This document shows, piece after piece, positions 21,366 through 63,026 of a stretch of 64,000 nt of DNA. Below the pieces are notes generated by a model. The model was not told the DNA's origin and ran no database searches. It saw only the letters and a list, made by a program, of their open reading frames with translations. The position numbers and the translations under genes are program-made. How positions within the stretch are numbered: the stretch's first letter is position 1; each line of letters opens with the position of its first letter. Location of the stretch: the NCBI RefSeq assembly GCF_024502345.1, contig NZ_JALDNN010000001.1; one strand, written 5' to 3'. The stretch comes from Escherichia coli. Its GTDB lineage: Bacteria; Pseudomonadota; Gammaproteobacteria; Enterobacterales; Enterobacteriaceae.

Positions 21366-22055
21366 TTACTCACTCTCTGCCGGTAATACTGGCATCCAGT
21401 CAATCGGCGTCTCGCCATGTTGTTCCAGCCACTGATTTGCCAGCACAAAATGGTTGCAGCCAAAGAATCCACGATGCGCCGAAAGCGGCGACGGATGCGG
21501 TGCTTTCAGTACATGATGGCGTTGCTTATCTATAATCGCCCCTTTCTTTTGCGCATGCGATCCCCACAACAAAAACACCACGCCTTCGCGATGCTGGTTA
21601 ATCAGGCTGATCACTTTATCGGTGAAGGTTTCCCAGCCGAGGCTGGCGTGGGAATGCGCCTGACCTGCGCGTACCGTCAACACAGTATTGAGTAGCAGAA
21701 CGCCCTGACGCGCCCAGCTTTCAAGATAACCATGATTAGGGCGGGTGAAGCCCGGAATAGTATTTTCCAGCTCTTTATACATATTCAGCAGTGACGGAGG
21801 AGTGGCGATTCCGGGGCGAACGGAAAATGCCAGCCCATGCGCCTGTCCCGGTCCGTGATAAGGATCCTGGCCGAGAATCACCACTTTAACGTCACCCAAC
21901 TCGGTAAAGCGGAACGCGTTAAAGACATCTTTTTGTGGTGGATAGATAGTGATGCCGGACTGCCGCTCGCTGGCGACGGTCTGAAGGGTATTAAGAAAAT
22001 AGGGTTGCTGCTTCTCTTCAGCCAGCACGTCATGCCATGTTAATTCGTTAGCCAT
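21366..22055 (-). CDS. ung: Uracil-DNA glycosylase
   Basis: 229-aa [23 protein letters not shown]... with the GQDPYH catalytic motif. Confidence 0.95.
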
Positions 22056-22185
22056 CTCGCTCTCCTGCGAATCTTCAATCCGCCTAGCTTAACTGCTTCT
22101 TTCTACAGAACAAAATCATGCTCATTTTTTAGACTTAAACGAGTGCAAAAAAATGTAAATTGGTAAAATTTCACACCCGCATAAG

Positions 22186-22199
22186 TTGATGTAAAACAA
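22186..22199. promoter_or_regulatory. FNR site II (upstream) of the grcA promoter
   Basis: TTGATgtaaAACAA, close to the FNR consensus TTGAT-N4-ATCAA; centred 53 bp upstream of site I, as expected for the two-site yfiD/grcA promoter. Confidence 0.6.
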
Positions 22200-22238
22200 T
22201 AAAATCCATTTGCGACCACAATCGATGTGTGATTTTTA

Positions 22239-22252
22239 TTGATTTAAATCAA
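22239..22252. promoter_or_regulatory. FNR site I of the grcA promoter
   Basis: TTGATttaaATCAA, a perfect match to the FNR/CRP-family consensus, about 110 bp upstream of the grcA start. Confidence 0.7.
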
Positions 22253-22359
22253 AGAATAAAGGGTGTTTGAGGAGTATATATACACTCAAGCAACAATGGT
22301 TTTACCAATTGGCCGCGACAGGCTGAACAAATCAAATAATTTTGCCGGGGAGGCATCAC

Positions 22360-22743
22360 ATGATTACAGGTATCCAGATTACTAAAGCCGCTAACGACGA
22401 TCTGCTGAACTCTTTCTGGCTGCTGGACAGCGAAAAAGGCGAAGCACGTTGCATCGTTGCGAAAGCAGGTTTTGCAGAAGACGAAGTGGTTGCAGTAAGC
22501 AAACTGGGTGACATTGAGTACCGTGAAGTTCCAGTAGAAGTGAAACCAGAAGTTCGCGTTGAAGGTGGTCAGCACCTGAACGTTAACGTTCTGCGTCGTG
22601 AAACTCTGGAAGATGCAGTTAAGCATCCGGAAAAATATCCGCAGCTGACCATCCGTGTATCCGGTTATGCAGTTCGCTTTAACTCTCTGACTCCGGAACA
22701 GCAGCGCGACGTTATCGCTCGTACCTTTACTGAAAGCCTGTAA
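22360..22743 (+). CDS. grcA: Autonomous glycyl-radical cofactor (stress-induced pyruvate formate-lyase spare part)
   Basis: ATG at 22360 gives the 127-aa [20 protein letters not shown]... protein with C-terminal glycyl-radical motif RVSGYAV. Confidence 0.93.
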
Positions 22744-22764
22744 GGCTTAAGTAGCAAGTTACTA

Positions 22765-22796
22765 AGCGGAAGAGGGCGACCTCTTCCGCTTTTTTT
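22765..22796. terminator. Rho-independent terminator between convergent grcA and eamB
   Basis: Hairpin AGCGGAAGAGG-GCGAC-CCTCTTCCGCT followed by TTTTTTT; A-run on the other side could serve eamB. Confidence 0.7.
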
Positions 22797-22798
22797 CA

Positions 22799-23386
22799 TT
22801 AATAAAAAATGCGTACCGCGCAATAGATCAGCAGCAGCGCCAGCACGATATTTAACTGGCGACCATACTGGCGAAACAATCGCTGAAACAGATGCCCCGC
22901 CAGCGCCCAGCACACATTACCAAACGTCCCAATCATTGCCAGCAAAACGCTGACGCCAACTATCCAGCTTAACGCCTGTGTTTGCGGCAGAACAAATGTC
23001 GACAGTGCCGTAACACCGTACAAAATGATTTTGACGTTCACAAACTGCAAAGCAAAGCTGGCCCAAAAACTGATTGGTTTTGTCTGAAGCCCGTCTTCCT
23101 TTGTTGGACTGGTAGCGATTTTCCACGCCAGCCAGACAATATATGCCGCCCCCGCCCAACTCAACAGATGCACAGCTGCCGGGTCGATAACAGCCAGTGA
23201 AAACGAAATGCCCGCACACAGCAACATGACGATTAAAAATCCCAGACTCATCCCTGCCAGCACGCGGGTACTTTGACGAAATCCATGCGACGTAGCAGAG
23301 CTAAGGGCGAGAATATTGTTCGGTCCTGGCGTCATAGCGGTAATCAGGGTGTAAGTCCAAAAAGCACTTAAAAGGGTCGGTGTCAC
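22799..23386 (-). CDS. eamB: Cysteine/O-acetylserine exporter (LysE/RhtB family)
   Basis: 195-aa polytopic membrane ORF MTPTLLSAFWTYTLITAMTPGPNN...; recognised as EamB/YfiK. Confidence 0.88.
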   Translation of the reverse strand: MTPTLLSAFWTYTLITAMTPGPNNILALSSATSHGFRQSTRVLAGMSLGFLIVMLLCAGISFSLAVIDPAAVHLLSWAGAAYIVWLAWKIATSPTKEDGLQTKPISFWASFALQFVNVKIILYGVTALSTFVLPQTQALSWIVGVSVLLAMIGTFGNVCWALAGHLFQRLFRQYGRQLNIVLALLLIYCAVRIFY

Positions 23387-53000: not shown

Positions 53001-53024
53001 ATTGATGTATCTCAAATGCATCTT
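53001..53024. promoter_or_regulatory. NsrR operator (with overlapping FNR-like half-sites) in the hmp promoter
   Basis: AAGATGCATTTGAGATACATCAAT on the hmp strand: imperfect inverted repeat matching the NsrR consensus; TTGATgtatCTCAA also resembles an FNR site; 26 bp upstream of the hmp start. Confidence 0.65.
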
Positions 53025-60788: not shown

Positions 60789-60797
60789 CGGCAGTGT
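60789..60797. repeat. 9-bp target-site duplication (right copy) of the IS insertion
   Basis: CGGCAGTGT immediately right of the IS right inverted repeat. Confidence 0.9.
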
Positions 60798-61514
60798 CTG
60801 AAAATGGCAGTAGCCGTACCGTTCGTCGCGCCAGTGAAGCGGGTATTCCGGTGATTTGCTACAACACCTGTATTAATCAAAAGGGGGTCGATAAATATGT
60901 CTCGGCGTATCTGGTCGGCGATCCGCTGGAATTTGGTAAAAAACTGGGTAACGCTGCCGCCGATTATTTTATTGCCAATAAAATTGACCAGCCGAAAATT
61001 GCCGTCATCAATTGCGAAGCCTTTGAAGTTTGTGTGCAGCGACGTAAAGGATTTGAAGAAGTATTAAAATCCCGCGTTCCCGGCGCGCAAATTGTCGCTA
61101 ATCAGGAAGGGACTGTTTTAGATAAAGCGATTTCCGTTGGTGAAAAACTGATTATCTCCACGCCGGATCTCAACGCCATTATGGGGGAGTCGGGCGGTGC
61201 GACACTCGGCGCGGTAAAAGCGGTACGTAATCAAAATCAGGCCGGAAAAATTGCTGTTTTCGGTTCGGATATGACAACCGAAATTGCTCAGGAGCTGGAA
61301 AACAATCAGGTGCTGAAAGCGGTAGTGGATATTTCCGGTAAGAAAATGGGCAATGCTGTTTTCGCGCAAACATTGAAGGTTATCAATAAACAAGCCGACG
61401 GTGAAAAAGTGATTCAGGTGCCAATCGATCTCTATACCAAAACGGAAGATGGTAAACAGTGGCTGGCAACGCACGTTGATGGTCTGCCCTAATCGCTGAT
61501 TCGCAGAGGTCCCT

Positions 61515-63026
61515 ATGTTCACGGCAACAGAGGCAGTCCCGGTAGCAAAAGTGGTGGCAGGAAATAAGCGTTACCCCGGCGTCGTTGCGCTGGATAACGT
61601 TAACTTCACGCTCAATAAAGGCGAAGTTCGTGCGCTGTTAGGTAAAAACGGCGCGGGCAAATCGACTCTCATTCGAATGCTTACCGGCAGCGAACGCCCG
61701 GATAGCGGTGATATCTGGATTGGCGAGACGCGACTGGAAGGTGACGAAGCTACGTTGACTCGCCGTGCCGCTGAACTGGGGGTTCGTGCGGTTTATCAGG
61801 AGTTAAGTCTGGTGGAGGGACTGACGGTGGCGGAAAACCTCTGCCTCGGTCAGTGGCCCCGCCGCAACGGCATGATTGATTACCTGCAAATGGCGCAGGA
61901 TGCCCAACGTTGCTTACAGGCGCTGGGCGTTGACGTTAGCCCTGAACAACTTGTTTCAACGCTAAGCCCGGCGCAAAAGCAACTGGTGGAAATTGCGCGG
62001 GTGATGAAGGGCGAGCCGCGCGTGGTCATTCTTGATGAACCTACCAGTTCGCTTGCCAGTGCGGAAGTTGAACTGGTGATCAGCGCGGTGAAAAAGATGT
62101 CGGCACTGGGCGTGGCGGTAATTTATGTCAGCCACCGGATGGAAGAAATTCGCCGCATTGCCTCCTGTGCCACTGTTATGCGCGATGGTCAGGTGGCGGG
62201 CGATGTGATGCTCGAAAACACCTCCACGCATCATATTGTGTCGCTAATGCTAGGGCGTGATCACGTTGATATTGCGCCGGTAGCCCCTCAGGAAATTGTG
62301 GATCAGGCCGTGCTGGAAGTCCGTGCATTACGCCATAAGCCCAAGCTGGAGGATATCAGCTTTACGTTACGTCGCGGCGAAGTGCTTGGCATTGCTGGCC
62401 TGCTGGGGGCAGGGCGCAGTGAATTGCTGAAGGCGATTGTTGGGCTGGAGACGTATGAACAGGGCGAAATTGTTATCAACGGCGAGAAAATCACGCGCCC
62501 CGATTACGGCGACATGCTGAAACGCGGCATTGGCTATACGCCAGAAAACCGCAAAGAAGTGGGGATCATTCCCTGGTTGGGCGTTGACGAAAATACAGTG
62601 CTGACCAATCGGCAAAAAATCAGCGCCAACGGAGTGCTGCAATGGTCCACCATCCGCCGCCTGACCGAAGAGGTGATGCAGCGGATGACGGTCAAGGCCG
62701 CCAGTAGCGAAACGCCCATCGGCACGCTTTCTGGTGGCAATCAGCAAAAAGTGGTGATCGGTCGTTGGGTCTATGCCGCCAGCCAGATTTTGTTGCTCGA
62801 CGAGCCAACGCGCGGCGTCGATATCGAAGCCAAACAGCAGATTTACCGTATTGTCCGTGAGCTGGCTGCCGAAGGAAAAAGCGTGGTGTTTATCTCCAGT
62901 GAAGTGGAGGAGTTGCCGCTGGTGTGCGACCGCATCCTGTTGTTACAGCACGGTACGTTCTCGCAGGAGTTTCACTCGCCGGTCAATGTGGATGAGCTGA
63001 TGTCCGCCATTCTGTCTGTGCACTGA
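61515..63026 (+). CDS. yphE: ABC transporter ATP-binding protein (two fused ATPase domains, sugar-importer type)
   Basis: 503-aa ORF with two Walker A motifs (GKNGAGKST, GLLGAGRSEL) and signature LSGGNQQK. Confidence 0.88.
   Translation: MFTATEAVPVAKVVAGNKRYPGVVALDNVNFTLNKGEVRALLGKNGAGKSTLIRMLTGSERPDSGDIWIGETRLEGDEATLTRRAAELGVRAVYQELSLVEGLTVAENLCLGQWPRRNGMIDYLQMAQDAQRCLQALGVDVSPEQLVSTLSPAQKQLVEIARVMKGEPRVVILDEPTSSLASAEVELVISAVKKMSALGVAVIYVSHRMEEIRRIASCATVMRDGQVAGDVMLENTSTHHIVSLMLGRDHVDIAPVAPQEIVDQAVLEVRALRHKPKLEDISFTLRRGEVLGIAGLLGAGRSELLKAIVGLETYEQGEIVINGEKITRPDYGDMLKRGIGYTPENRKEVGIIPWLGVDENTVLTNRQKISANGVLQWSTIRRLTEEVMQRMTVKAASSETPIGTLSGGNQQKVVIGRWVYAASQILLLDEPTRGVDIEAKQQIYRIVRELAAEGKSVVFISSEVEELPLVCDRILLLQHGTFSQEFHSPVNVDELMSAILSVH

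What the first reader, a model, noticed from the sequence alone, without database searches (positions are those of the whole stretch)
22186..22252. Two FNR boxes 53 bp apart upstream of grcA
TTGATttaaATCAA (perfect consensus, 22239..22252) and TTGATgtaaAACAA (22186..22199) are centred 53 bp apart, the spacing of a tandem activator/co-regulator arrangement, upstream of the glycyl-radical cofactor gene. This fits anaerobic and acid induction of grcA and is a clean example readable directly from sequence.
Basis: partly seen in the sequence, partly recalled or inferred. Interest (0 to 1): 0.3.

Follow-up and report, generated by a model that had tools for sequence, protein, structure and literature searches.

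The report
Known tandem FNR sites, grcA promoter
The two boxes are real and are the long-studied oxygen-sensor (FNR) binding sites of the E. coli yfiD/grcA promoter; the downstream one switches the gene on, while the upstream one is a brake and not a helper, so this is ordinary, already-published biology.

Summary
Observation confirmed. TTGATGTAAAACAA (22186-22199) and TTGATTTAAATCAA (22239-22252) are there, with centres 53 bp apart, in the 304-bp ung/grcA intergenic region. The downstream box is the only perfect FNR consensus in 64 kb (0.06 expected by chance). Both boxes are identical to E. coli K-12, where they are the published FNR I (-40.5) and FNR II (-93.5) sites of the yfiD (=grcA) promoter. 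FNR ChIP-seq places a peak there, and a 2023 promoter study mutated exactly the distal box.

Published work shows the -93.5 site down-regulates transcription when occupied, which gives maximal expression under microaerobiosis. It is not a co-activator. Acid induction cannot be read from these boxes; ArcA and PdhR also act at this promoter.

New here: in 61 of 65 Enterobacterales grcA loci the two boxes keep a 52-53 bp spacing. The distal box keeps its imperfect AACAA half-site in 54 of those 61. Its distance to ung varies freely.

Side observations:
- a conserved PdhR-type operator at +10..+25
- a covarying 5'UTR hairpin at +24..+41
- a different 42-44 bp tandem arrangement in Pasteurellaceae

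Verdict: already known, low interest.

The parts
22186..22199 (.). Distal FNR box (FNR II, centred -93.5): TTGATGTAAAACAA, one mismatch to the consensus (AACAA half-site). It is the down-regulating site.
   Evidence: Searches give sequence and coordinates. It is identical in K-12. Primer m097 of PMC10208419 mutates exactly this box to TTTATGTAAAAAAA, and that promoter (yfiD-m) is far stronger anaerobically. The box lies 52-53 bp from the proximal box in 61/65 Enterobacterales loci, with A at box position 11 in 54/61.
22239..22252 (.). Proximal FNR box (FNR I, centred -40.5): TTGATTTAAATCAA, perfect consensus. It is the class II activating site.
   Evidence: It is identical in K-12. Myers 2013 lists a ChIP-seq peak at yfiD with the site at -40.5 and classes the gene as directly FNR-activated. 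T at box position 11 is invariant in 61/61 loci.
22275..22280 (+). -10 hexamer TATATA. There is no recognisable -35, as expected for an activator-dependent class II promoter.
   Evidence: The hexamer column is invariant in the anchored stack of 24 genera, and many of them carry TGgTATATA, an extended -10. The sigma-70 consensus scan finds no complete promoter in 22000-22850. The first base of the hexamer is 29.5 bp from the centre of the proximal box.
22286..22286 (+). Inferred transcription start (+1), giving a 74-nt 5'UTR.
   Evidence: Derived two ways from published numbering. The FNR site at -40.5 gives 22286. The ArcA site listed as -10/+22 maps to 22276-22307 and gives the same +1. It was not mapped in this strain.
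22276..22307 (.). Predicted ArcA site with three direct repeats, overlapping -10 to +22.
   Evidence: The Park 2013 supplement gives the sequence TGGTAAAACCATTGTTGCTTGAGTGTATATAT, a weak motif score and a ChIP peak at ung/yfiD. Its reverse complement is found at these coordinates.
22295..22310 (.). PdhR-type operator AATGGTTTTACCAATT (core TGGT-N3-ACCA) at +10..+25.
   Evidence: Coordinates. The box is almost invariant from Escherichia to Yersinia, Serratia and Hafnia. PdhR repression of yfiD is stated. Assigning PdhR to this exact box is my inference from the palindrome.
22309..22326 (+). 5'UTR stem-loop UUGGCC-GCGACA-GGCUGA at +24..+41.
   Evidence: MFE -7.0 kcal/mol, z -2.6 in the window. 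A hairpin sits at the same place in most of the 47 distinct Enterobacterales UTRs; 43/47 segments fold with z < -1.5 (mean z -2.8). Stem positions covary (UA/UG/GC; GC/AU/GU) and loops are mostly 3-8 nt. No Rfam family matches.
22360..22743 (+). grcA (yfiD) CDS, 127 aa, preceded by the Shine-Dalgarno sequence GGGGAGG at 22347-22353.
   Evidence: RefSeq annotates it as 'autonomous glycyl radical cofactor GrcA'.
22764..22791 (+). Intrinsic terminator of grcA: 12-bp stem followed by a T-run.
21366..22055 (-). ung (uracil-DNA glycosylase), the divergent neighbour that shares the 304-bp intergenic region.
   Evidence: The divergent ung-grcA arrangement is kept in 78/80 loci.

Best explanation
This is the well-characterised yfiD/grcA promoter of E. 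coli. The perfect box at 22239-22252 (FNR I, about -40.5) is a class II activator site. Under low oxygen, dimeric [4Fe-4S]-FNR binds there and recruits RNA polymerase to a promoter that has a -10 (TATATA) but no -35. The imperfect box at 22186-22199 (FNR II, about -93.5) lies five helical turns upstream on the same face of the DNA. It binds a second FNR dimer, and that dimer down-regulates the promoter. Because the distal site is weaker, it is thought to fill only when active FNR is abundant, under strict anaerobiosis. grcA expression therefore peaks under microaerobiosis, when oxygen-damaged pyruvate formate-lyase needs its spare glycyl-radical domain.

Shown in the literature for K-12: both sites, their positions, activation from -40.5, down-regulation from -93.5, and the microaerobic maximum. 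Shown here: identity of the boxes in this window, their statistical rarity, and strict conservation of the spacing and of the distal imperfection across Enterobacterales. Inferred: that the same holds in this strain; that differential affinity sets the order of occupancy; and the molecular contact by which the upstream dimer represses, which published summaries call unknown, noting involvement of the AR1 face of FNR but not of alpha-CTD.
For: - Sequence and statistics.
- Both boxes are identical to K-12 MG1655. The six SNPs in the promoter region (22219, 22221, 22223, 22232, 22256, 22258) all fall outside the boxes and the -10.
- The region is present once in 5425/5426 complete E. coli genomes, next to grcA.
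- FNR ChIP-seq peak at yfiD, site at -40.5, 'directly activated'.
- Green 1998 (title and summaries): FNR at -93.5 down-regulates even when -40.5 is occupied.
- Synthetic melR-based promoters are strongly repressed when the upstream FNR site lies between -85 and -95.
- Independent 2023 replication: a fragment equal to window 22175-22303 is the yfiD-WT promoter. Mutating G3 and C12 of the distal box (yfiD-m) or deleting it (yfiD-P1) gives much higher anaerobic output, and WT is more active microaerobically.
- Comparative test done here: 61/65 Enterobacterales grcA loci carry two FNR-like boxes 52-53 bp apart (sd 0.3 bp). Background box density in the same loci is 0.66/kb.
- The spacer between the boxes is not conserved, whereas the boxes and the -10 are.
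- The distal box keeps A at position 11 in 54/61 loci, against T in 61/61 for the proximal box. This is what selection for a deliberately weaker site would produce.
Against: - No experiment exists on this particular strain. Its promoter differs from K-12 at six positions near the boxes, and the fnr gene is outside the window.
- The primary papers (Green 1998, Marshall 2001, Wyborn 2002, Barnard 2003) could not be read, so the mechanism rests on how later open-access papers summarise them.
- ChIP-seq reported one site and one peak, centred between the two boxes, so in vivo occupancy of the distal site is not resolved genome-wide.
- The repression mechanism is described as unknown.
- The sign of ArcA's effect differs between sources: Park 2013's own data class yfiD as ArcA-repressed, while Wyborn 2002 is cited as reporting activation.
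Confidence: 0.95

Rival explanations
1. Synergistic tandem activation, the first reader's reading: both FNR dimers contact RNA polymerase, the downstream one as a class II activator and the upstream one through alpha-CTD, and together they raise transcription.
For: Tandem CRP sites often work this way, for example an upstream CRP at -93.5 enhancing CC(-61.5) promoters. The 53-bp spacing puts both dimers on the same face of the helix.
Against: Published summaries state the opposite for yfiD. Upstream FNR between -85 and -95 represses synthetic promoters. Destroying or deleting the distal box increases anaerobic output.
Confidence: 0.03
2. The distal box belongs to the divergent ung promoter, or is a bidirectional element, and its proximity to the grcA site is incidental.
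For: The box lies 137 bp upstream of the ung ATG in a shared 304-bp intergenic region, and ung-grcA divergence is conserved in 78/80 loci.
Against: Across 61 loci the distance from the distal box to the ung start ranges from 112.5 to 299.5 bp (sd 29.3). Its distance to the proximal box is fixed at 52-53 bp (sd 0.3). No report of FNR control of ung appeared in the papers I read.
Confidence: 0.02
3. Chance similarity in A+T-rich intergenic DNA: the distal one-mismatch box is not a binding site.
For: Boxes with at most 1 mismatch occur about 2.5 times per 64 kb by chance, and intergenic DNA is A+T-rich.
Against: About 0.008 such boxes are expected within +/-100 bp of the perfect site (arithmetic). 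The box is conserved at a fixed spacing in 61/65 orthologous loci while the flanking spacer diverges. Mutating it changes promoter output.
Confidence: 0.005

Closest known systems
E. coli K-12 yfiD (grcA) promoter: FNR I at -40.5 and FNR II at -93.5 (Green, Baldwin & Richardson 1998; Marshall et al. 2001)
   Same: It is the same locus. Both 14-bp boxes, the 53-bp spacing, the -10, the PdhR-type box and the 5'UTR are identical. The published promoter fragment maps to window 22175-22303.
   Different: Six SNPs lie outside the functional boxes (-67, -65, -63, -54, -30, -28 relative to the inferred +1). The A at 22232 was not seen in the best-matching RefSeq genomes, whose top identity is 99.7%. 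Nothing suggests a functional difference.
Synthetic tandem-FNR promoters based on melR (Barnard, Green & Busby 2003)
   Same: FNR at -41.5 plus a second FNR site between -85 and -95 gives sharp repression (summary). This is the same geometry as here.
   Different: Those promoters use consensus sites in an artificial context. Here the distal site is naturally imperfect, and that imperfection is conserved.
Tandem CRP promoters, e.g. CC(-122.5)CC(-61.5) (Lee & Busby 2012)
   Same: An upstream-bound CRP/FNR-family dimer represses a promoter that a downstream dimer of the same protein activates.
   Different: CRP repression works through the AR1/alpha-CTD contact. For yfiD, alpha-CTD is reported not to be involved.
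hmp promoter FNR site, in the same window at 53002-53015
   Same: It is a one-mismatch FNR box, TTGAGATACATCAA.
   Different: It is a single site that, from memory of Cruz-Ramos 2002, overlaps the transcription start and so would repress by occlusion. It ends 27 nt upstream of the hmp ATG. It was silent in ChIP-seq, although other data support it.

Membership tests
FNR-dependent class II promoter | 14-bp inverted repeat TTGAT-N4-ATCAA | tested here: met
   The perfect consensus lies at 22239-22252 and is the only one in 64 kb.
FNR-dependent class II promoter | Site centred about 41.5 bp upstream of the transcription start, overlapping the -35 region, with a -10 but a poor -35 | tested here: met
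   The box centre is 29.5 bp upstream of the first base of the conserved TATATA. No sigma-70 consensus promoter was detected. Published numbering gives -40.5. The start site itself was taken from the literature and not measured in this strain.
FNR-dependent class II promoter | FNR occupancy in vivo and FNR-dependent expression | not testable with these tools
   Shown for K-12 by ChIP-seq and expression data. It is transferred here through sequence identity of the boxes.
yfiD-type tandem FNR architecture (activation from -40.5, down-regulation from -93.5) | A second FNR box about 53 bp upstream of the activating box, within the repressive -85 to -95 interval | tested here: met
   22186-22199 is 53 bp from the proximal box. 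The repressive interval is quoted. The spacing is conserved in 61/65 Enterobacterales loci.
yfiD-type tandem FNR architecture (activation from -40.5, down-regulation from -93.5) | The distal site is weaker than the proximal site | tested here: inconclusive
   The distal box has one mismatch (AACAA), kept in 54/61 loci, while the proximal half-site ATCAA is kept in 61/61. This is consistent with lower affinity, but no affinity was measured.
yfiD-type tandem FNR architecture (activation from -40.5, down-regulation from -93.5) | Removing the distal site raises anaerobic expression | not testable with these tools
   Published for the K-12 sequence: yfiD-m and yfiD-P1 are much stronger than WT. Not done for this strain.
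Synergistic tandem activator promoter (both dimers activate) | The upstream site increases promoter activity | not testable with these tools
The published K-12 data point the opposite way: all describe the upstream site as repressive. I do not file the promoter under this family.

The most novel reading that the evidence does not exclude
The promoter itself is known. The most novel reading left open is that the covarying stem-loop at +24..+41 of the grcA 5'UTR (22309-22326) is an undescribed post-transcriptional element. It abuts the PdhR-type operator and is conserved across Enterobacteriaceae. It could be a 5' stabiliser linked to the processed 5' end that Green 1998 is said to have seen. 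A second open reading is that the conserved weak distal box (53-bp spacing in Enterobacterales) and the 42-44-bp tandem arrangement in Pasteurellaceae are two evolutionary solutions to the same microaerobic band-pass control.
Probability: 0.3. Interest if true: 0.3.

Novelty: already known. Interest (0 to 1): 0.08.

Why it matters
The finding correctly recognises a textbook example of how one oxygen sensor can produce a band-pass (microaerobic) response from two sites of different strength, so it adds no new biology. Its practical value is as a positive control for a sequence-only reader. It is also a caution that 'two sites for an activator' does not mean 'double activation', because position decides the sign. 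The comparative result obtained here shows that the architecture is under selection well beyond E. coli: the spacing is fixed at 52-53 bp and the imperfect distal half-site is conserved in 61/65 Enterobacterales species.

Tried and rejected
- Primary papers: Green 1998, Wyborn 2002 and Barnard 2003 are not held in the library. I relied on open-access papers that quote them.
- Sigma-70 consensus scan of 22000-22850: no promoter found. This is expected for an activator-dependent promoter and was not informative beyond that.
- Rfam scan of 22000-22850 at E <= 1: only three sub-threshold chance matches (two miRNA families and SorY), far below their gathering scores. No known RNA family is present.
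- RNAalifold on MAFFT-aligned UTR segments: no structure predicted, because loops of variable length were not gapped. I replaced it with per-sequence folding and pair tabulation.
- The idea that the distal box serves ung: rejected on distance variance.
- The idea that the strain-specific G-to-A change at 22232 (creating TGTGA) makes a CRP site: rejected by eye. The partner half-site would be TTGAT, which matches TCACA at 1 of 5 positions.
- Assigning the conserved A/T-rich block 'GAAAATTTACAAAAAT' at about -140..-125 to ArcA or to the ung promoter: no convincing match, left unassigned.
- Pasteurellaceae: I tried to decide which box is the activating one from the conserved TTGAAA-N17-TGaTAAAAT promoter. 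The downstream box would sit near -46 to -48, not -41.5, so this is unresolved.

Full report
**Observation.** Window 22186-22199 reads TTGATGTAAAACAA and 22239-22252 reads TTGATTTAAATCAA. The centres are 53 bp apart. The FNR consensus TTGAT-N4-ATCAA occurs without mismatch only once in the 64-kb window, against 0.06 expected from dinucleotide shuffles. Boxes with at most one mismatch occur 7 times against 2.46 expected. Three of the other five lie inside long ORFs. At the looser threshold of at most 2 mismatches (40 boxes), one other pair lies within 120 bp, at 2674/2750.

**Context.** The boxes lie in the 304-bp region between ung (21366-22055, minus strand) and grcA/yfiD (22360-22743, plus strand; the ATG is at 22360). 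An intrinsic terminator follows at 22764-22791. The intergenic region occurs exactly once in 5425 of 5426 complete RefSeq E. coli genomes, always next to grcA. The window is E. coli-like, but it is not identical to any of those genomes: the best identity is 99.7% over 305 bp and 99.4% over 22 kb.

**Comparison with K-12.** In an alignment with K-12 MG1655, both boxes, the -10 region and the whole 5'UTR are identical. The six differences (22219, 22221, 22223, 22232, 22256, 22258) lie in the spacer between the boxes or between the proximal box and the -10.

**What it is.** These are the published FNR I (-40.5) and FNR II (-93.5) sites of the yfiD promoter.
- Myers et al. 2013 list an FNR ChIP-seq peak at yfiD with a site at -40.5, in the category 'directly activated by FNR'.
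- Park et al. 2013 list a weak predicted ArcA site at -10/+22 whose sequence maps to 22276-22307. Both numberings put +1 at window 22286.
- The centre of the proximal box is 29.5 bp upstream of the conserved TATATA hexamer (22275-22280), and there is no -35. This is the class II geometry.
- Wichmann et al. 2023 (PMC10208419) amplified the yfiD promoter with primers that map to 22175-22303. Their mutant primer changes exactly the distal box to TTTATGTAAAAAAA.

**How it works.** Open-access papers that summarise Green 1998, Marshall 2001 and Barnard 2003 agree on the following.
- FNR at -40.5 activates.
- A second FNR dimer at -93.5 down-regulates, even when the activating site is occupied.
- Alpha-CTD is not involved.
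- In synthetic promoters, an upstream FNR site between -85 and -95 causes strong repression.
- The wild-type promoter is more active under microaerobiosis than under full anaerobiosis.

In the 2023 study, the promoters with the distal box mutated (yfiD-m) or deleted (yfiD-P1) were much stronger anaerobically. The wild type was judged too weak.

The promoter also integrates ArcA and PdhR. Trotter 2011 lists 'ArcA (+) FNR (+/-) PdhR (-)'. Park 2013 attributes ArcA activation to disruption of FNR binding. The acid response is therefore not explained by the two FNR boxes alone.

**Independent comparative test.** I fetched 80 grcA loci, each from a different species, and scanned the 400 bp upstream of each ATG.
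- In 61 of 65 Enterobacterales-like loci, two FNR-like boxes (at most 2 mismatches) lie 53 bp (55 loci) or 52 bp (6 loci) apart. The background density of such boxes elsewhere in the same loci is 0.66 per kb.
- The exceptions are three Pantoea species (a single box) and Plesiomonas (44-bp spacing).
- The box-to-box distance has sd 0.3 bp. The distance from the distal box to the ung start has sd 29.3 bp (range 112.5-299.5), and the distance from the proximal box to the grcA ATG has sd 11.5 bp. The distal box is therefore tied to the grcA promoter and not to ung.
- An anchored stack of 24 genera shows that the boxes and the -10 are nearly invariant while the 39-bp spacer diverges freely.
- The distal box keeps its non-consensus A at position 11 (AACAA) in 54 of 61 loci. 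The proximal box has T there in all 61. This is what one expects if a weaker distal site is itself selected. It fits the published idea that the brake engages only at high levels of active FNR. That last step is inference; no affinities were measured.

**Other elements seen.**
- A PdhR-type palindrome AATGGTTTTACCAATT (22295-22310, +10..+25) is conserved from Escherichia to Yersinia and Serratia.
- Directly after it, a stem-loop (22309-22326) is predicted in the 5'UTR. A hairpin occupies the same place in most of the 47 distinct Enterobacterales UTRs, and 43/47 segments fold with z < -1.5 (mean z -2.8). Loops are mostly 3-8 nt, and several stem positions covary.
- No Rfam family matches the region.
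- Bose & Newman 2011 mention that Green 1998 saw a processed 5' end at yfiD. That could relate to this hairpin, but I could not check it.
- Pasteurellaceae loci often carry two FNR-like boxes 42-44 bp apart, upstream of a conserved TTGAAA-N17-TGaTAAAAT promoter. The geometry relative to the transcription start is unresolved.
- Elsewhere in the window, the one-mismatch box at 53002-53015 (minus strand, TTGAGATACATCAA) ends 27 nt upstream of the hmp ATG. Its position fits the FNR site upstream of hmp that Myers predicted and that earlier binding data support. Its exact identity with the published site is from my memory.

**Limits.** No data exist for this particular strain. The function is transferred from K-12 through identity of the boxes. 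The primary papers were not readable. The molecular mechanism of upstream repression is described as unknown. ChIP-seq did not resolve two sites.

**Verdict.** The feature is real and correctly located, and the regulator and gene are correctly named. Interest is low.

Noticed in passing
window 22309-22326 (+): A conserved stem-loop in the grcA 5'UTR (+24..+41), immediately after the PdhR-type box. A hairpin sits at the same place in most of 47 distinct Enterobacterales UTRs; 43/47 segments fold with z < -1.5. The stem shows covarying pairs and the loops vary in length. No Rfam family matches. A processed 5' end reported for yfiD might relate to it.
   Followed up: partly
window 22295-22310: A PdhR-type operator, AATGGTTTTACCAATT (TGGT-N3-ACCA), at +10..+25. 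It is nearly invariant across Enterobacteriaceae, Yersinia, Serratia and Hafnia. A partial second copy, AAATTGGTAAAATTT, lies at 22157-22171 and occurs only in Escherichia.
   Followed up: partly
window 53002-53015 (minus strand TTGAGATACATCAA): A one-mismatch FNR box ending 27 nt upstream of the hmp start codon (ATG at 52975, minus strand). Its position fits the FNR site upstream of hmp that Myers 2013 predicted but found silent in ChIP-seq.
   Followed up: partly
L046, L049, L053, L054, L056, L061, L067 (Pasteurellaceae grcA upstream regions, about -85 to -140 from the ATG): Instead of the 53-bp arrangement, these loci carry two FNR-like boxes 42-44 bp apart, upstream of a conserved TTGAAA-N17-TGaTAAAAT promoter. 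Which box activates, and whether the pair is repressive, is unresolved.
   Followed up: partly
window 22145-22160 and the equivalent about -140..-125 in L005-L082: An A/T-rich block (GAAAATTTACAAAAAT in most genera; AAAAATGTAAATTGG in Escherichia) is conserved upstream of the distal FNR box. It could be an ArcA site or the ung promoter; I left it unassigned.
   Followed up: no
window 22219-22258: Six SNPs relative to K-12 cluster around the proximal box without touching it. GAAT just 3' of the box (K-12 has GATT) is the state seen in most other genera. The A at 22232 was absent from the best RefSeq matches, so the source strain is not in the complete-genome set; it may be a Shigella or an unsampled lineage.
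   Followed up: partly
window 12000-34000: A 22-kb query hits a median of 39 places per E. coli genome, so this stretch contains at least one dispersed repeated element, of REP, IS or rRNA type. I did not locate it.
   Followed up: no
window 61373-61386: A further one-mismatch FNR-like box, TTGAAGGTTATCAA, not inside an ATG-started ORF of at least 200 aa but overlapping shorter or GTG-started ORFs (60794-61492 +, 61118-61522 -). No evidence of function was sought.
   Followed up: no
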